DNA of 64,000 nucleotides from Thermoplasmata archaeon (GTDB lineage Archaea; Thermoplasmatota; Thermoplasmata; Lutacidiplasmatales; UBA184), in assembly GCA_021816865.1 (NCBI GenBank), contig JAKAWX010000001.1, positions 124,739 to 188,738 on the forward strand. The letters are read 5' to 3'. A program made the position numbers and the translations under genes. The notes under the pieces were generated by a model, which worked only from the letters and a program-made list of their open reading frames with translations, was not told the origin of the DNA and searched no databases. How positions within the stretch are numbered: position 1 is the first letter of the stretch; each line of letters begins with the position of its first letter. Below are positions 39,864 through 45,313 of this stretch, in pieces.

Positions 39864-41537
39864 TCACGAGACCCTTTGTGCCCGCGGAGCCGATTCCTCC
39901 ACGATCAGTCGAGCCGCGACCGCAATCGGTGGGAGGTCGTTGTTCGGAGTCGACCCCCGAGCCGGGATCGCCGGACCGGCCTGCGAAATCGTCCCCATCG
40001 GTCCCGAGATCGCGAACGTGGCGGAGCAGGTAGGGCCGGAACCGGTCGCCGAGTTGGAAAGGACTGCTTCAAAACAGAACCCTCCGGAATCCCCGGTGCC
40101 GGTCGTCACGATCGCCCAGTACGTACCGGGTCCTCCGTAGCCGCTGTATGAGCTCAGTGAGATCGAGATCATGGCGTTCGGACCGTTCGCCGACTGTCGG
40201 GCGGAACCGAGACTCGGGGTTCCCCCCATACCGGTCCCCATTTGGTAGACCGGCTGTGGCCCGCTGGTCGTCCCGTCCGATTCGAATACGTTGACGTAGT
40301 TGTAGTTGTTCCACTGATTGTTCGATACGGAGAAAGTGAACACCGTCTGCTGGTTCTGGTTAAGGGAGCACGCGGTGACCGTGCCGAAGGACGTCGCGAT
40401 CGTCTGACCCGAACAGGAGGGGGTCGGAGCACTGACCGTGATGGTGACCGAGGTGGAGGCGACATTCGCCTTCGAGTCCGTCACACTGAGCGTCGCAAGG
40501 AACGTCCCTGCGGTCGTGTAGGTGTGGCTCGGGTTCTGAAGGGCACTCGCGCCCCCGTCGCCAAAGTTCCACGAATAGGTGAACGGACCAGTCCCCCCGC
40601 TCTGGGTCGTGGCGAAGGTGACCGTCAGGGGATAGACTCCCGAGGTCGGCTGGGCCGTGATGCTGACGTAGAGCTGGCCGGTGGGTCCCGAAACGCGGAT
40701 CGTGACGGCCGCTGCCGTGGTCTGGCCGGCGGACCCGGAGGCGTTGACGAATCCGGTGAACGTGCCCGGCCCCGCAGCGCCGGAGGTGGCGTTGTAGGTC
40801 CATTGGCCCTGGTACAGCACCATCTTAACCGGATTGCTGGGAAGGCCCGGTACGGTAGCGAGGTTGGCGTAGACCGAGTTCGGCTTCACTCCCCCGGTGA
40901 TCGTGGCGTAGACGGAGAAGGGCGCGCCCTGGGCGACGGGAGTAGACGACACCCAAGTGGACGTGATCACCGGCGGGGTGACGATCTTCTGGCCCGGAAG
41001 GACGACGCTGTAGAGGAGCTGGCTCCCGCTCACAACGTACACGGTGATGTTGTCGGGCAAGGGGTCGGTCGTGGGCGTTCCACAGATCGACGTGAAGGAG
41101 CGAGACCAGGTCTGACCAAGGTTCCAGGTGGACGTACTGATGCCCGATCCCACCGTCATCGACGTGGAGAACGGGCAGCTGTTCGGATACGCGGCCGATT
41201 TGAGGTAGATCAGCCCCGTCGAGGCGACCGCGGGACCGGTGAGGTGGGTGATGTTGATACCGCTCACCGCGGTTCCGCCGGGCGCCAACACGAGGTTCGC
41301 CTGGAACTGGTTCGCGTTTTGAGGTGGGGGGGACGGGAACGAGGTCACGAAGGCGAAGATCGAAGCGAACAACGTGACCGTGAGTGCCAAGAGGAGGATC
41401 GTCGCGACAACGTCAGAAACCCCGCGGCGCGAACGGTGTCGGTGGATCGACGGCCTTCCGCGAGCGCTCTGAACCGGAGTCACCCCCAACGGCGCGGGTT
41501 CCGGTGACGAGACCTGACCTGAGCGGGACACAACCAA
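39864..41537 (-). CDS. class III signal peptide (archaeal type IV pilin-like) protein with a PKD domain
   Basis: RRGVSDVVATILLLALTVTLFASIFAFV matches the archaeal pilin N-terminal (DUF1628-type) pattern. The PKD signature is GTGPFTYSWNFGDGGASALQNPSHTYTTAGTFLATLSVTDS. The TTG start is uncertain. Confidence 0.7.
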   Translation of the reverse strand: MVVSRSGQVSSPEPAPLGVTPVQSARGRPSIHRHRSRRGVSDVVATILLLALTVTLFASIFAFVTSFPSPPPQNANQFQANLVLAPGGTAVSGINITHLTGPAVASTGLIYLKSAAYPNSCPFSTSMTVGSGISTSTWNLGQTWSRSFTSICGTPTTDPLPDNITVYVVSGSQLLYSVVLPGQKIVTPPVITSTWVSSTPVAQGAPFSVYATITGGVKPNSVYANLATVPGLPSNPVKMVLYQGQWTYNATSGAAGPGTFTGFVNASGSAGQTTAAAVTIRVSGPTGQLYVSITAQPTSGVYPLTVTFATTQSGGTGPFTYSWNFGDGGASALQNPSHTYTTAGTFLATLSVTDSKANVASTSVTITVSAPTPSCSGQTIATSFGTVTACSLNQNQQTVFTFSVSNNQWNNYNYVNVFESDGTTSGPQPVYQMGTGMGGTPSLGSARQSANGPNAMISISLSSYSGYGGPGTYWAIVTTGTGDSGGFCFEAVLSNSATGSGPTCSATFAISGPMGTISQAGPAIPARGSTPNNDLPPIAVAARLIVEESAPRAQRVS

Positions 41538-41997: not shown

Positions 41998-42555
41998 CTA
42001 CGGCAGCGCGACGCTGGTCGTGCCCTGGAGAGCCCCGGTGCCGGCTGCGATTAAGTCGTCGCCCGATACCGAGATGCTCGTGTAGAGGACCAAGGTGTCG
42101 GTGCTGGCGAATGTAACCGGAAGCGAGCCTCCGCTCCAGGTGCCCGCCGTGAAGTTGAACGCGGCGAGCGTCGTTCCGGTCAGACTCAGTATCGTGACCG
42201 TTGCGCCTCCAGGCATCGAGACGGGGGAACCCCCGCTCTGCACGGTAAACTTGACGTTCGCCGTGGTTACGGTGGAGCTCGCGGACGCGATGCCCACCGA
42301 GTAGCAGTGGCCGGCCGGCGGAGACGCGCCGCAGGGACTGGTCGCGCTTCCGCTAGACTGCTGAGCCACTCCGTAGCCGAAAGCGCTACCAATGGGTGTG
42401 GAACCAGGGCCCTTCGTCAGTCCGGAGATCAGTACGTACAAGACGGCAGCCAGCACGACCGTGATCGCGACGAGCAAAATCGTCGCGATGATCGGCGACA
42501 CACCGCGCTTGCGCGCCTTTCTCCAGCTTCGTTCTCTCTTGCCAAAGACGTTCAT
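41998..42555 (-). CDS. archaeal type IV pilin-like protein (class III signal peptide)
   Basis: MNVFGKRERSWRKARKRGVSPIIATILLVAITVVLAAVLYVLISGL is a canonical KRG|VSP prepilin-peptidase-type site followed by a hydrophobic helix. Length 185 aa. GGAGG lies 11-15 nt upstream of the ATG (complement of 42566-42570). Confidence 0.75.
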   Translation of the reverse strand: MNVFGKRERSWRKARKRGVSPIIATILLVAITVVLAAVLYVLISGLTKGPGSTPIGSAFGYGVAQQSSGSATSPCGASPPAGHCYSVGIASASSTVTTANVKFTVQSGGSPVSMPGGATVTILSLTGTTLAAFNFTAGTWSGGSLPVTFASTDTLVLYTSISVSGDDLIAAGTGALQGTTSVALP

Positions 42556-42622: not shown

Positions 42623-42651
42623 CATGACGTTGATTGAACGACAAACATCGA

Positions 42652-42669
42652 CATGTGATTCGTCACATG
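42652..42669. repeat. perfect 7-bp inverted repeat with a TTCG spacer (CATGTGA-TTCG-TCACATG)
   Basis: Read directly from the sequence. It lies inside the AT-rich patch. A 10-bp palindrome, ACGCATGCGT, follows at 42692-42701. Confidence 0.7.
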
Positions 42670-43297
42670 CCGAACTAACCTGTAACTGCGCACGCATGCG
42701 TATCAATGCCGTCCGCCCGAGTCTCTCGGGCCCTCATGACCGCATTCCGCGAAGGTCAGGGTTCGGGGACCCTGCGCTGGCTGAACCCCTTGGCGCGAGT
42801 ACGGGCCCTAAGTATAGGGTTGCCATGACCCGAAGCCAAACGTGGACGGGCGATCTGGACCTCGGGCGCTCCCGGTCGAGGCGGCGCCGAGCGATGCGGG
42901 ACGCCCCACCTGGACACGCGTGGACTCGAACGGATACCATACGCACGTCCCCCGCCGCGCACGCACCTCTTCGCGCTGTCCGTGGACCGGCGGCCGATAA
43001 CCAGTCGGCCTCGGTTTACCCCATCCGCCGTAGTGAATGCCCTAGCTCATCGGACCGACCCGTCCAGCGCTGGGGCTCCCGTTGTTTGGACGTGGCAAGG
43101 AGTCGATCGACCGGGACCGCTGTGGGGGATTCCGCCTCGAATAGGTCGACGCGACGAGATCGCTCAACTTTTGGGAGCGAGATACTCCTTCAGCCCTCCT
43201 TGGCCCGCGGCGCTCGGCCCGGGCGTAAAGGAACCCGAGTCGCCGACCGGGCCGGCCCTTTACCTCGCAGGTCCCCGACACTACACGGTAGACGAGA

Positions 43298-43308
43298 GTC
43301 GAACGGGC
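43298..43308. repeat. left arm (GTCGAACGGGC) of an 11-nt inverted repeat; the partner is at 43404-43414
   Basis: It is the exact reverse complement of GCCCGTTCGAC at 43404-43414. Both arms are followed by CCAATC. Confidence 0.7.
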
Positions 43309-43403
43309 CCAATCAAACGTCGTCCCGCGTAGTGCACGCGTACTTCACGCGTCTTGGACGGGTCTCGCAGAGCCGGTTATACTGAGCGGTTCTTCGAAGC
43401 TCA

Positions 43404-43436
43404 GCCCGTTCGACCAATCGAACAACTTGTTCGACA
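43404..43436. repeat. cluster of nested palindromes with a GTTCGAC core
   Basis: GCCCGTTCGAC is the right arm of the 11-mer inverted repeat. GTTCGA-CCAA-TCGAAC spans 43408-43423 and CGAACAA-C-TTGTTCG spans 43419-43433. The 9-mer TGTTCGACA (43428-43436) recurs at 43533-43541, over the RHH start codon. Confidence 0.7.
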
Positions 43437-43495
43437 CGTCAGGAATCGTCCTGAATCGGGCTACGGCTTTGTGCTCTCAGCGCGACGGCCGCGCG

Positions 43496-43503
43496 TTTAA
43501 GTA
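43496..43503 (+). promoter_or_regulatory. TATA box TTTAAGTA about 30 nt upstream of the GTG at 43532 (leaderless RHH gene)
   Basis: The element TTTAAGTAGAGGGAC is nearly identical to the promoter element at 25690. Confidence 0.5.
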
Positions 43504-43531: not shown

Positions 43532-44035
43532 GTGTTCGACAACGCTCCAGAGACGGGATCTGAGCGCTCCCGCGCCCAGAATGCCTCCCGGAAGGAAGCC
43601 GAGGACGCGCGCATCGCCCTACGGTGCAACCTGAAGGAGCTCCAGTTGGTCGACTCGTTCGTGGCGAGCGGCGAGTACCCGACCCGATCGGAGCTCATGC
43701 GGGCGGCGCTGCACGCGTTCCTGCGCTCCCGAGCGACGCCGACCGCGCCGACGACGCCGGCCGCCGACGCCGAGGGCCTTGTCGAGGTCCCCGTGCGACT
43801 GCGACCGGAAGAGTACGCGGCCCTCGAGACCTACAGTCGCCACGTCGCGAACGGCCGTCCCGTGCGAGACATTCTCGCCGAGATGGTCCGCCGCGGAGAG
43901 ATGGAGATGAAGGTCCACGAGCTCGTCCACCGCGCCCGGGCGACCGTGCGCGAGGCGGCGGAGACCCGAACCCAGGTCGGAGCGCTCAGCGAGAGCGGCA
44001 AGGACCTGGAGCGAAAGGGGGTCGTCGGTCGGTAG
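43532..44035 (+). CDS. ribbon-helix-helix (CopG/Arc/MetJ-type) DNA-binding protein with two RHH motifs
   Basis: RHH motif 1: RIALRCNLKELQLVDSFVASGEYPTRSELMRAALHAFL. RHH-like motif 2: VEVPVRLRPEEYAALETYSRHVANGRPVRDILAEMVRRGE. A Thr/Pro/Ala linker joins them. Length 167 aa. Confidence 0.7.
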   Translation: MFDNAPETGSERSRAQNASRKEAEDARIALRCNLKELQLVDSFVASGEYPTRSELMRAALHAFLRSRATPTAPTTPAADAEGLVEVPVRLRPEEYAALETYSRHVANGRPVRDILAEMVRRGEMEMKVHELVHRARATVREAAETRTQVGALSESGKDLERKGVVGR

Positions 44036-44070
44036 CGCCCGAGAGTTGGAGACACATCCGAGGGGGGGTT

Positions 44071-44997
44071 GTGGGAACCTACGAGGCCGAGCGAACGAAG
44101 AGCGACCGAAGCGCCATGCCGGGCTACGGCGAGCCGGACGACGCGAGCTGGGAGAACCGGCTGCGTCTCGGCCAGGATGTCCGATTCGTCCTGGCGGCCG
44201 TTGGTGGCGGGGCGATCCGAGTCGGAAGGGAGATCGCGCGCCAGCACATCCGGCACCTCGAGACGGTCGCGATCAATTGCGACCCCAAGGTCCAAGGATT
44301 CGACGAGTTCGACCGGCGGGTCTACCTCGGCCCCGACACCGGCATCGACACCGACACCGGAGGCTCGCCCATGGTCGGGGGTCTCCTGGCGCGGGCGGCC
44401 GAGCCGGCGCTCCAGCGGATCTTCCACGGCGCGACGTTCGTCATCGTTATCGGAAGCCTCGGCGGCGGTGCCGGGAGCGGCGCGTTGCCGTACGTGCTGG
44501 AGGTCGCCTCCCGCAACGCCGAGGTCGTGAGCGCTTTCGTGATCAAGCCGTTCCGCTGCGAAGGTGAGCGTCGGGCGCTCGCCGATCGGGCGATCGGCCG
44601 GCTCCACTTCGTGGAGTCGTTCGTCGAGAAGCGCGAACGCGGCTTCGCCACCCTCCAGACGCTCGACAACGAGAGCCTCGCTCGCACCCAGGGAGGCCTC
44701 GCCTTCACGCACGTGAGCCAGCACTGGGCCTCCATGATCGAAGAGCACATCGAGCGGTCGTTCCTCGCACCGGCGGAAGCGCTCCTCGAGACGCTCCAAA
44801 TGAGCCAGTCGGTCGAGCAGGGGCCCGTCAACCGGATCCCGCCGGCCGAGGTTCCCGCGGTCGGATTCCCTCCGCACGGCCCGGCCCCCCCGATGCCCGA
44901 GGGCCCGCCGATCCTGCCCGCGATCCACATGATGGACCTCGAAGCCGAGCTCGAGTTCGAGATCGAGCCGGGAGCTCGTCCCGCGCCGGCGCGCTGA
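44071..44997 (+). CDS. FtsZ/tubulin-superfamily GTPase, N-terminal GTPase domain only (no T7 loop or C-terminal subdomain), with a Pro-rich tail
   Basis: VLAAVGGGAIRVG, VAINCD, GGSPMVG, VIVIGSLGGGAGSGALP (tubulin signature), VIKPFRCEGERR, TLQTLDNESL. Together these are collinear with E. coli FtsZ residues about 10-200. The GTG at 44071 is preceded by GAGGGGGG. An alternative start is the ATG at 44116. Confidence 0.75.
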   Translation: MGTYEAERTKSDRSAMPGYGEPDDASWENRLRLGQDVRFVLAAVGGGAIRVGREIARQHIRHLETVAINCDPKVQGFDEFDRRVYLGPDTGIDTDTGGSPMVGGLLARAAEPALQRIFHGATFVIVIGSLGGGAGSGALPYVLEVASRNAEVVSAFVIKPFRCEGERRALADRAIGRLHFVESFVEKRERGFATLQTLDNESLARTQGGLAFTHVSQHWASMIEEHIERSFLAPAEALLETLQMSQSVEQGPVNRIPPAEVPAVGFPPHGPAPPMPEGPPILPAIHMMDLEAELEFEIEPGARPAPAR

Positions 44998-45089
44998 CGG
45001 GCCCACCCCCGCCGGGCAGGCCCCTCCGTCTGCTACGCCCGGCGGTACCGAATCAACCTTAAGTGCGGCCCGGGTTCCGGGATTCCTCG

Positions 45090-45257
45090 ATGGACGGCCG
45101 ACTGTTCACGGTCCTGGGTTTCCTGGTCCTTCCGGTCGCCCTGCTCGGCCTCACGGTCGCGGAGTTCCACTCGAACCCCGTGGCGATCCTTGCCTTGCTC
45201 GCGATGATGATCGGCGGGGCGTTCTACCTTCTGACCTACAGCGAGACGTTCGCCTAA
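45090..45257 (+). CDS. small two-TM membrane protein (55 aa)
   Basis: MDGRLFTVLGFLVLPVALLGLTVAEFHSNPVAILALLAMMIGGAFYLLTYSETFA. A CCTTAAGT box lies about 29 nt upstream of this ATG. Track ORF starts at the GTG at 45063. Confidence 0.45.
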   Translation: MDGRLFTVLGFLVLPVALLGLTVAEFHSNPVAILALLAMMIGGAFYLLTYSETFA

Positions 45258-45313
45258 GTTCCCCCGCCGCGACCGCCGCTGACCCCCGGGTCGCGCGCTC
45301 CGTCGTCGCCGGG

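What the first reader, a model, noticed from the sequence alone, without database searches (positions are those of the whole stretch)
43532..45257. Cassette of a tandem-RHH DNA-binding protein, an FtsZ-family GTPase reduced to its N-terminal domain, and a tiny membrane protein
Seen in sequence: ORF 44071-44997 is collinear by eye with the FtsZ N-terminal GTPase domain.
- VLAAVGGGAIRVG corresponds to GVGGGGxNAV.
- VAINCD corresponds to AVNTD.
- GGSPMVG corresponds to GAGANPEVG.
- GSLGGGAGSGALP carries the GGGTGSG tubulin signature with a T-to-A change.
- VIKPFRCEGERR corresponds to VTKPFxFEGxKR.
- TLQTLDNESL corresponds to IPNDKLL.

The similarity ends after the H7-like helix (WASMIEEHIERSF). 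There is no NxDxxD/E T7 synergy loop and no C-terminal subdomain. A Pro-rich linker follows (IPPAEVPAVGFPPHGPAPPMPEGPPILP), ending in an acidic amphipathic peptide (MMDLEAELEFEIEP). That layout recalls the FtsZ linker plus partner-binding C-terminal peptide.

The downstream space (45000-45313) is too short to encode the missing domain in another frame. It therefore does not look like a frameshifted canonical ftsZ.

A 167-aa RHH protein ends 35 nt upstream. A 55-aa two-TM protein follows downstream.

Inference: a centromere-binding-type protein paired with a tubulin-fold NTPase has the same logic as type III (TubR/TubZ) segregation loci, here with RHH in place of the TubR wHTH. Alternatively it is a membrane-remodelling module like the FtsZL1 family I recall from the literature, which I cannot verify here. 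Without a T7 loop, canonical head-to-tail GTPase activation would not work, so the biochemistry would be unusual.
Basis: partly seen in the sequence, partly recalled or inferred. Interest (0 to 1): 0.8.

Follow-up and report, generated by a model that had tools for sequence, protein, structure and literature searches.

The report
Half-length FtsZ with CdrS-like regulator
A group of soil Thermoplasmata archaea carries a well-conserved two-gene operon: a DNA-binding regulator like those that control archaeal cell division, followed by an FtsZ division protein that keeps its GTP-binding half but has lost the half needed to build and fire normal filaments, a form I found in no searched paper.

Summary
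ORF 44071-44997 encodes a 308-aa FtsZ-family protein with only the N-terminal GTPase domain and helix H7. It has no T7 loop and no C-terminal subdomain. A disordered Pro-rich linker and a conserved acidic-hydrophobic end peptide follow.

It is not a pseudogene:
- More than 400 homologues are almost all 302-321 aa.
- 63 species-level Thermoplasmata genomes carry it.
- Core dN/dS is 0.10-0.14.

The RHH gene ends 35 nt upstream, and no promoter lies between the two genes. Its best family match is CdrS, the regulator of ftsZ2. Five more distant short FtsZs, in partly or wholly different neighbourhoods, also have an RHH gene directly upstream. So do full-length Thermoplasmata FtsZs. The RHH promoter carries phylogenetically invariant TGTTCGACA boxes.

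The TubR/TubZ and FtsZl1 readings are not supported. The locus is chromosomal, has no relatives in the plasmid or viral collections, and has the wrong architecture.

The 55-aa membrane protein is real but has its own promoter. Its link to the pair is weak.

Best reading: a derived cdrS-ftsZ-type operon whose product can offer only the nucleotide face. It probably caps or modulates canonical FtsZ filaments. That step is inferred. I could not test whether canonical FtsZ occurs in the same genomes.

The parts
43376..43382 (+). Invariant GTTATAC block. It may be a distal TATA-like element about 25 nt upstream of the first GTTCGAC box.
   Evidence: Invariant in 14 diverse orthologous promoters. Function is inferred only.
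43408..43414 (+). GTTCGAC box 1 (upstream copy). It is lost in the deepest members of the clade.
   Evidence: Present at -124/-125 from the start codon in most of the ~60 loci.
43428..43442 (+). Box 2, TGTTCGACACGTCAG. This is the best-conserved non-coding element and the presumed operator of the RHH protein.
   Evidence: Nearly invariant across the clade at -103/-104, 21 nt from box 1. The exact 9-mer occurs only twice in the 64-kb window.
43496..43503 (+). Archaeal TATA box TTTAAGTA of the RHH-FtsZ operon. It ends 28 nt before the GTG start, so the mRNA is leaderless or nearly so.
   Evidence: Invariant TTTAA(G/A)TA in all aligned loci.
43532..44035 (+). Gene for a 167-aa CdrS-like RHH protein: RHH1 at residues 27-66, probable RHH2 at 83-120, a long C-terminal helix and an invariant GVVGR end. 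Box 3 (TGTTCGACA, 43533-43541) overlaps the start codon.
   Evidence: dN/dS 0.09-0.30.
44036..44070 (+). 35-nt spacer with a conserved purine/G run (GAGGGGGGG, 44060-44068) and no TATA-like element. This implies co-transcription and a Shine-Dalgarno-type restart.
44071..44997 (+). Gene for the 308-aa short FtsZ: a poorly conserved N-terminal leader (residues 1-31), the GTPase N-domain plus H7 (residues 32-250, 44164-44820), and a Pro-rich disordered linker (251-290).
44941..44967 (+). Conserved C-terminal peptide EAELEFEIE (family consensus E[VA]ELTFE[VI]). It alternates acidic and hydrophobic residues and is a presumed partner-docking motif.
   Evidence: E293, F296 and E297 are invariant within an otherwise variable tail. 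The motif is also kept in the deep representatives P0121-P0134.
45058..45065 (+). TATA-like element CTTAAGTG. It is the small membrane protein gene's own promoter.
   Evidence: Conserved (C/G)TTA(A/T)(G/A) block ~25 nt before the ATG in 14 loci.
45090..45257 (+). Gene for a 55-aa protein with two transmembrane helices (MDGR...F.SNP...YLL[TS]Y). It is conserved in the clade, but its link to the operon is uncertain.
   Evidence: A 4.4-kb insertion separates it from the FtsZ gene in L059. Its sequence is not found next to the more distant short FtsZs.

Best explanation
The locus is a lineage-specific derivative of the archaeal 'RHH regulator + FtsZ paralogue' operon, the arrangement known as cdrS-ftsZ2.

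The 167-aa CdrS-like RHH protein is a transcription factor. It most likely binds the invariant TGTTCGACA boxes: two lie upstream of the TATA box and one sits on the start site. Through them it would control its own bicistronic, leaderless mRNA.

The second cistron makes a 'half FtsZ'. This is a nucleotide-binding N-domain plus H7, followed by a flexible linker and a conserved terminal docking peptide. It has the top (nucleotide) face of an FtsZ subunit. It has neither the T7 loop nor the C-terminal subdomain that form the bottom face. It therefore cannot build a canonical self-activating homopolymer.

The most likely role is as a division-linked modulator. It would add, through its nucleotide face, under the T7 loop of a canonical FtsZ at the growing (bottom) end of a filament. 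It would then terminate or anchor that end, with the tail peptide recruiting a partner.

Shown: domain content, conservation, purifying selection, operon structure, RHH pairing across lineages, and the promoter footprint.

Inferred: DNA binding to the boxes, GTP binding, and above all the capping/modulator role. I put that last step alone at roughly 0.35.
For: Fold and motifs.

Conserved family of constant length:
- The top 120 hits are 285-323 aa at 68-97% identity.
- Only about 19 representatives at 50% clustering score below 1e-30, followed by a sharp drop to canonical FtsZ.
- 63 GTDB species carry it, all Thermoplasmata.

Selection: core omega is 0.10-0.14, like the neighbouring FEN1 gene.

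Operon: a 35-nt spacer with a conserved G-run and no TATA.

RHH pairing independent of neighbourhood:
- 5 of 5 distant short-FtsZ loci have an RHH gene directly upstream. Four neighbourhoods are distinct; two of the five loci share part of theirs.
- 3 of 3 full-length Thermoplasmata or related FtsZ loci do too.

CdrS is the top NCBIfam hit for 5 of the 6 RHH proteins scanned and a close second or third for the other.

Published cdrS-ftsZ2 synteny and regulation: PMC7439475. 'ftsZ2 frequently with parD': PMC8178401.

Promoter footprint.

Capping logic: bottom-interface FtsZ mutants are toxic, filaments grow at the bottom end, and MciZ caps there (PMC8936486).
Against:
- I could not establish that the same genomes encode a canonical FtsZ to be capped. 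None of the top 120 relatives of a Thermoplasmata FtsZ query lay on the large contigs that carry the short gene. That is weakly compatible with the short form being the only copy of that paralogue.
- Several nucleotide-pocket residues differ from FtsZ: T1 Asn to Arg, T4 Thr to Ala, and the guanine-binding Asp of H7 to Ala. Two deep family members have a degenerate T4 loop. GTP binding is therefore not certain.
- The terminal peptide does not match the archaeal SepF-binding 'GID' motif.
- CdrS similarity is below the model's cutoff (26 versus 100 bits).
- In a neighbour-joining tree the short forms do not nest inside a canonical FtsZ2-type clade.
Confidence: 0.55

Rival explanations
1. The short protein is itself the working division FtsZ of these archaea, having replaced the RHH-linked paralogue. 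It would assemble by a non-canonical route, for example through the extended H7 helix or by insertion of the terminal beta-strand-like peptide into a neighbour. GTP turnover would be activated by another partner.
For: - It occupies the same operon position behind an RHH gene that full-length FtsZ occupies in other Thermoplasmata.
- No close full-length relative was seen on the large contigs of this clade.
- The core is under very strong purifying selection.
- H7 is predicted to be unusually long, residues 212-249.
Against: - Most of the bottom interface of FtsZ and tubulin filaments is made by T7, H8 and the C-terminal subdomain, all of which are missing.
- AlphaFold gives no ordered contact for the tail.
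- The absence of other FtsZ genes was not shown.
Confidence: 0.2
2. It is a monomeric GTP-binding switch or pseudo-GTPase that no longer touches filaments. Nucleotide state would control exposure of the terminal peptide to some partner, and the RHH would simply be its transcriptional regulator.
For: - The glycine-rich loops are retained, but guanine-specific and T1 residues are altered.
- T4 is degenerate in deep members P0131 and P0132.
- The tail peptide is unlike known FtsZ tail motifs.
Against: The persistent pairing with a CdrS-type regulator across lineages argues for a retained division context. There is no positive evidence for any other pathway.
Confidence: 0.15
3. One reading: a type III-like segregation module. 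The RHH protein would bind a centromere, and the tubulin-fold GTPase, through its tail, would move DNA.
For: - An RHH DNA-binding protein sits directly upstream of a tubulin-fold NTPase with a long tail.
- Repeated DNA boxes lie upstream.
- The basic GVVGR end of the RHH and the acidic end of the GTPase are both conserved.
Against: - Chromosomal core synteny in 63 species.
- No plasmid or viral relatives.
- TubZ/PhuZ-type profile scores are negligible.
- There are only 2-3 boxes, locked to the TATA box and start site.
- TubZ needs both domains and T7 to treadmill, which this protein lacks.
- The RHH resembles CdrS.
Confidence: 0.05
4. Split FtsZ: the missing C-terminal subdomain is encoded elsewhere in the genome as a separate polypeptide that reassociates with this N-domain.
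For: From general knowledge, the two FtsZ domains fold independently.
Against: - No FtsZ_C-like sequence occurs anywhere in the 64-kb window or in the ~12-kb flanks of 63 orthologous loci.
- T7 itself, which follows H7 on the same chain, is missing.
- The tail has evolved its own conserved peptide.
Confidence: 0.05

Closest known systems
cdrS-ftsZ2 operon of Euryarchaeota (CdrS RHH regulator plus FtsZ2; PMC7439475, PMC8406309)
   Same: - A small RHH transcription factor gene lies immediately upstream of an FtsZ-family gene on the same strand and is co-transcribed with it.
- CdrS is the best family match of the RHH.
- The same pairing is seen with full-length FtsZ in other Thermoplasmata.
   Different: - The RHH is 167 aa with a probable second RHH and a long C-terminal helix. 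Haloarchaeal CdrS is ~60 aa.
- The FtsZ partner lacks T7 and the whole C-terminal subdomain.
- It does not group with canonical clades in the tree.
- There is no GID tail motif.
Canonical FtsZ (TIGR00065; PF00091 + PF12327)
   Same: - The N-terminal GTPase fold with T1-T6 loops and H7.
- A disordered linker followed by a conserved terminal peptide.
   Different: - No T7 synergy loop and no C-terminal subdomain.
- 67 bits against a 295-bit cutoff.
- T1 Asn to Arg, T4 Thr to Ala, and H7 Asp to Ala.
- A 10-residue insert between H5 and S6.
Bottom-interface FtsZ mutants and the end-capper MciZ (Redick 2005 and Du 2018 as cited in PMC8936486; Bisson-Filho 2015)
   Same: This is a functional analogy only. 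A subunit with an intact top face and no usable bottom face should add to the growing end and block it.
   Different: Those are laboratory mutants or an unrelated 40-aa peptide. Here the cap would be a naturally evolved, separately regulated paralogue. No binding has been shown.
ARC3 of plant chloroplasts, which has an FtsZ-derived N-terminal region and is a negative regulator of Z-ring assembly. The regulatory role is in PMC13650779. The FtsZ-like origin of its N-terminus is from my own knowledge (Shimada 2004).
   Same: A degenerate, non-polymerising FtsZ derivative used to restrain FtsZ assembly.
   Different: ARC3 is eukaryotic, carries MORN repeats and has lost its GTP-binding motifs. It has no homology-level link to this family and no RHH partner.
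TubR/TubZ type III plasmid partition
   Same: A DNA-binding protein gene next to a tubulin-fold NTPase gene with a C-terminal tail.
   Different: TubZ has both domains and treadmills. TubR is a winged HTH. tubC is an iteron array. These systems sit on plasmids or phages. None of this applies here.
FtsZl1 (Makarova and Koonin 2010, PMC2875224)
   Same: A divergent FtsZ-like N-domain in which T6-H7, T7 and the C-domain are not recognisable.
   Different: FtsZl1 proteins are ~1000 aa with a long coiled coil and an alpha-helical C-domain. They are linked to vWA, GTPase and OmpA genes. Here H7 and T6 are clearly present, the protein is 308 aa, and the partner is an RHH.

Membership tests
Canonical FtsZ | N-terminal Rossmann-type GTPase domain with T1-T6 loops and the tubulin signature | tested here: met
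   PF00091 E=8e-12. Alignments to FtsZ. AF2 model and Foldseek hits to FtsZ structures. The signature is GGGAGSG, and T1 and T2 carry substitutions.
Canonical FtsZ | T7 synergy loop (NxDxxD) after H7 | tested here: not met
   The aligned positions read TLQMSQ and vary within the family.
Canonical FtsZ | C-terminal subdomain (FtsZ_C, PF12327) | tested here: not met
   No Pfam hit. Residues 252-308 are disordered. Only ~200 columns align structurally. No such sequence occurs elsewhere in the window.
Canonical FtsZ | Score above the TIGR00065 equivalog cutoff (295 bits) | tested here: not met
   67 bits.
Canonical FtsZ | Archaeal C-terminal 'GID' SepF-binding motif | tested here: not met
   The tail consensus is E[VA]ELTFE[VI]. 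The motif definition is from PMC8178401.
cdrS-ftsZ2 module | RHH gene immediately upstream of an FtsZ-family gene, on the same strand and co-transcribed | tested here: met
   A 35-nt spacer without a promoter element. The arrangement is conserved in 63 genomes and in 5 distant short-FtsZ loci. Transcription itself was not measured.
cdrS-ftsZ2 module | The RHH belongs to the CdrS family | tested here: inconclusive
   NF058555 is the best NCBIfam hit but scores 26 bits against a cutoff of 100, and the model is haloarchaeal. The same is true of the RHHs of related loci at 23-57 bits.
cdrS-ftsZ2 module | The FtsZ partner is an FtsZ2 orthologue | tested here: inconclusive
   In the NJ tree of the N-domain, the short forms make their own long-branched cluster (bootstrap 62) outside both canonical archaeal clades. 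No maximum-likelihood analysis or labelled FtsZ1/FtsZ2 references were available.
cdrS-ftsZ2 module | The RHH regulates the operon and cell division | not testable with these tools
   Only a conserved operator-like footprint is available.
TubR/TubZ type III partition | TubZ-family GTPase with both tubulin domains | tested here: not met
   Tubulin_2 PF13809 scores 13.9 bits, below its cutoff. PHROG PhuZ scores 16 bits. There is no C-domain.
TubR/TubZ type III partition | Located on a plasmid or phage, with an iteron centromere | tested here: not met
   Conserved chromosomal synteny. No hits in the plasmid or viral collections. Only 2-3 boxes, fixed relative to the TATA box.
FtsZl1 | ~1000-aa protein: FtsZ-like N-domain, long coiled coil and alpha-helical C-domain, with vWA/GTPase/OmpA neighbours | tested here: not met
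   The protein is 308 aa with a disordered tail. Its neighbours are pilins, PAC2, FEN1 and FTCD. The family definition is from PMC2875224.

The most novel reading that the evidence does not exclude
The short FtsZs may be an unrecognised class of archaeal division tubulin. This covers the window's clade and the two more distant groups that also sit behind an RHH gene. Each would be a 'nucleotide-face-only' subunit made under cell-cycle control by a CdrS-like regulator. It would dock under the T7 loop at the growing end of canonical FtsZ filaments. Through its tail peptide it would couple that end to another machine, for example ESCRT-III/CdvB (which Thermoplasmata keep without CdvA), SepF or a small membrane protein. 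That would make it a natural, genetically encoded filament-end regulator.
Probability: 0.25. Interest if true: 0.85.

Novelty: new variant of a known kind. Interest (0 to 1): 0.62.

Why it matters
How archaeal FtsZ rings are regulated is largely unknown, and few FtsZ-binding factors have been identified. Here evolution has kept one half of FtsZ under strong selection in a whole lineage, and apparently in two further groups. It is always wired to the same kind of regulator that controls ftsZ2.

If the protein caps or tethers filament ends, it would be the first endogenous FtsZ-derived end regulator in prokaryotes. It would also be a clean tool for probing filament polarity.

If instead it divides cells alone, it would overturn the view that T7 and the C-terminal subdomain are indispensable for tubulin-family function.

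Either way, the locus gives a directly testable operator/regulator pair for an uncultured archaeal group.

Tried and rejected
1. Pseudogene or frameshift. Rejected: constant length across the family, dN/dS of 0.1, and no C-domain in any frame.

2. Co-occurrence with canonical FtsZ in the same genomes.
- I searched with a high-GC Thermoplasmata FtsZ (P0227) and compared contig lengths. There were no matches.
- I looked up the abundant high-GC FtsZ P0387. It comes from other assemblies.
- Neighbours of canonical ftsZ loci are not present in the window.
- Result: inconclusive. No whole-genome access was available.

3. Internal duplication of the RHH by hhalign: not significant, E=0.15. Pfam does not see the second half.

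The single-sequence model has low confidence.

5. Homology between the 55-aa membrane protein and the small 2-TM proteins next to the distant short FtsZs: not significant.

6. Rfam and tRNA scans of the long upstream spacer found nothing.

7. Defence-system, phage, plasmid and virus searches found nothing relevant.

8. One-mismatch genome-wide enrichment of the box was discounted. GTTCGAC is simply Phe-Asp codons in a high-GC genome.

9. Six of the seven full-text searches run, the ones aimed at this question, found no description of N-domain-only archaeal FtsZ.
Full report
**1. What is there**

The window is about 70% G+C. Its close relatives are all labelled Thermoplasmata archaeon MAGs, mostly from soil and peat.
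- a 167-aa protein at 43532-44035;
- a 308-aa protein at 44071-44997, after a 35-nt gap;
- a small membrane protein, whose conserved start is the ATG at 45090 (55 aa).

**2. The 308-aa protein is an FtsZ reduced to its N-terminal half**

[quoted passage not shown] TIGR00065 aligns residues 43-179 to model positions 24-161 of 353, at 67 bits against a 295-bit cutoff. Every PDB sequence hit is an FtsZ, matched over residues ~40-180.

An AlphaFold2 model built on 44 homologues gives a confident S1-S6/H1-H7 fold for residues ~32-250. It includes an unusually long H7 (212-249). Residues 1-30 and 252-308 are disordered. Foldseek against the PDB returns only FtsZ structures, with ~195-200 aligned columns and TM ~0.5. 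That is the N-domain plus H7.

In a joint alignment with archaeal and bacterial FtsZs:
- T1 (GGG), T2 (NCD), T3 (GGSPxVG), T4 (GGGAGSG), T5 (PFRCEGERR) and T6 (LDNE) are all in place.
- The T1 Asn is Arg, the T4 Thr is Ala, and the guanine-binding Asp of H7 is Ala. An invariant His-Trp precedes that Ala.
- A clade-specific 10-residue insert forms an extra helix (182-189).
- The NxDxxD T7 loop has no counterpart.

tblastn with 125 FtsZ representatives finds no other FtsZ-like segment in any frame of the window.

**3. It is a conserved family, not a decayed gene**

- The 5.8-billion-protein search returned 431 hits. The top 120 are 285-323 aa (mostly 305-309) and 68-97% identical.
- In the exhaustive HMMER scan of 50%-identity representatives, only 19 score below 1e-30. 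The full-length ones are 302-321 aa. Scores then drop abruptly to canonical FtsZs, which match only profile positions ~38-179.
- 63 species-level GTDB genomes carry the gene, all Thermoplasmata.
- The alignment shows an almost invariant core (residues 32-236), a variable Pro-rich linker and a conserved terminal peptide E[VA]ELTFE[VI]. The deepest representatives keep this peptide in recognisable form.
- Pairwise dN/dS of the core is 0.10-0.14, the same as the neighbouring FEN1 gene. The leader and tail run at 0.3-0.8.

**4. The RHH partner and the wider pattern**

The upstream protein has a weak RHH_1 match. Its best NCBIfam match is CdrS, the haloarchaeal regulator of ftsZ2 (residues 27-66, 26 bits, below cutoff).

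Within the 63 genomes the whole neighbourhood is syntenic: two pilin genes, RHH, short FtsZ, the small membrane protein, PAC2, FEN1, FTCD and RibD_C. Adjacency inside this clade therefore proves little.

The decisive evidence comes from more distant short FtsZs of 268-307 aa. They also have only PF00091 and end after H7. All five that I could place on contigs have an RHH gene of 126-162 aa directly upstream. Four of these neighbourhoods are distinct, and two of the five loci share part of theirs.

Full-length FtsZs of other Thermoplasmata or related archaea show the same arrangement. Their RHH genes are 104, 75 and 105 aa, and two of them are demonstrably tandem RHHs. CdrS is the top NCBIfam hit for five of the six RHH proteins scanned, and a close second or third for the other.

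This matches the published cdrS-ftsZ2 synteny (PMC7439475) and the remark that archaeal ftsZ2 is frequently next to parD (PMC8178401).

Evidence that the window's RHH is tandem:
- The alignment places VEVPVRL opposite the second strand of those proteins.
- A low-confidence single-sequence model shows beta-alpha-alpha twice, then a long helix.
- A direct profile comparison of the two halves was not significant.

I therefore rate the 'tandem' label as probable, not shown.

**5. Regulatory anatomy**

Fourteen diverse orthologous promoters were aligned. They give a clear footprint in otherwise diverged DNA:
- an invariant GTTATAC (43376-43382);
- a GTTCGAC box (43408-43414);
- the nearly invariant TGTTCGACACGTCAG (43428-43442);
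- the TATA box TTTAAGTA (43496-43503);
- TGTTCGACA again, exactly on the GTG start (43533-43541).

The boxes are spaced 21 and 105 nt apart. They recur at the same offsets in essentially all ~60 loci examined. The exact 9-mer occurs nowhere else in the window.

The TATA box ends 28 nt before the start codon, which implies a leaderless or near-leaderless mRNA. The RHH-FtsZ spacer has a conserved G-run and no TATA, so the two genes form an operon.

This layout fits a self-regulated promoter, not a centromere. Binding of the RHH to the boxes is an inference.

**6. The small membrane protein**

It is a real, conserved gene with motifs MDGR, F.SNP and YLL[TS]Y, and dN/dS of 0.14-0.40. However:
- It has its own conserved TATA element and a leaderless ATG.
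- In one genome a 4.4-kb insertion separates it from the FtsZ gene.
- One distant group has a different 63-66-aa two-TM protein encoded convergently downstream. Its similarity to the window's protein is not significant. The other distant group has none.

I treat the link as possible but unproven.

**7. Readings rejected**

TubR/TubZ:
- The locus is chromosomal and vertically inherited.
- It has no viral or plasmid relatives and no defence-system match.
- Similarity to PhuZ/TubZ-type profiles is negligible.
- It lacks the domains TubZ needs to treadmill.

FtsZl1: those proteins are ~1000 aa with a coiled coil and a different gene neighbourhood.

Pseudogene: see section 3.

**8. How it most likely works**

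An FtsZ subunit contributes its nucleotide-bearing top face to the subunit above it. It contributes its T7/H8/C-domain bottom face to the subunit below. This protein has only the former, so a self-activating homopolymer is excluded.

The literature reports three relevant points (PMC8936486):
- Bottom-interface FtsZ mutants are toxic, while top-interface mutants are not.
- Filaments grow at the bottom end.
- MciZ caps that end.

A natural subunit with only a top face is the evolutionary equivalent of such a mutant. I therefore favour a role as a regulated end-capper or end-adaptor of canonical FtsZ filaments, with the tail peptide docking a partner. The peptide's alternating acidic and hydrophobic residues suggest beta-strand addition.

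This step is inferred. It depends on two untested things: GTP binding, and the presence of a canonical FtsZ in the same cell. The main rival is that the short protein is itself the division FtsZ and works by an unknown assembly mode.

**9. Relationship to canonical clades**

In a neighbour-joining tree of the N-domain (209 columns, 100 bootstraps), the window's clade and the two distant short groups cluster together. Bootstrap support is 62 for all three and 86 for the two closest. They fall outside both canonical archaeal clades, and both of those clades include members with an RHH upstream.

With such long branches, this does not decide between a single ancient origin of the short form and repeated truncation of an RHH-linked FtsZ.

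**10. Novelty and limits**

Full-text searches found no description of N-domain-only archaeal FtsZ proteins. These included reading the FtsZl1, FtsZ/tubulin evolution, CetZ diversity and SepF papers. Only a generic category of 'non-canonical' tubulin-superfamily proteins is mentioned. The searchable library is incomplete, so prior description cannot be excluded.

I classify the finding as a new variant of a known kind: an FtsZ-family paralogue in a cdrS-ftsZ-type operon.

The chief gaps are:
- the FtsZ complement of the host genomes;
- the taxonomy of the two distant short groups;
- any biochemical evidence.

Noticed in passing
window 43532-44035 versus neighbours: The RHH gene has much lower synonymous divergence (dS 0.40-0.52) than the FtsZ gene, the small membrane protein gene or FEN1 (0.54-1.24) in the same genome pairs. 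This suggests nucleotide-level constraint or strong codon bias from high expression.
   Followed up: no
window 42630-43370: About 700 nt of apparently non-coding DNA lie between the pilin gene and the RHH promoter. The stretch is alignable only to the closest relative, at 69% identity against ~95% for the coding DNA. It is much shorter in other genomes: the gap is 425 nt in L001. It has no Rfam or tRNA hit, and the 253-aa ORF across it looks spurious.
   Followed up: partly
window 39864-41537 and 41998-42555 (minus strand): Two archaeal type IV pilin-like genes (Pilin_N, class III signal peptide) are conserved directly upstream of the operon in the whole clade.
   Followed up: no
L069 5924-6124 (-) and L072 1938-2129 (-): In one distant short-FtsZ group, a conserved 63-66-aa two-TM protein is encoded convergently right after the short ftsZ. 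The two copies are 64% identical. The layout resembles the window's 55-aa protein, but there is no significant sequence similarity.
   Followed up: partly
L059 6573-11062; also L060 and L064: L059 has a 4.4-kb insertion between the short ftsZ and the small membrane gene. The insertion carries pilin-like and beta-propeller-repeat genes. The short ftsZ shows apparent frameshifts in three long-read MAGs, which are probably assembly errors.
   Followed up: partly
proteins P0131 and P0132 (deep members of the family): Their T4 signature has decayed to GGEAGTE and GGETGSS while the rest of the protein and the tail peptide are kept. Some members may no longer bind nucleotide.
   Followed up: no
proteins P0146 (731 aa) and P0148 (826 aa): The representative search turned up proteins made of two complete FtsZ units in tandem on one chain.
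   Followed up: no
L066, L070 and L073, upstream of their RHH genes: Promoters of the RHH-FtsZ pairs in other lineages carry their own clusters of GACA/TGTC-containing repeats, some overlapping the start codon. This hints at a shared operator logic. It was not tested statistically.
   Followed up: no
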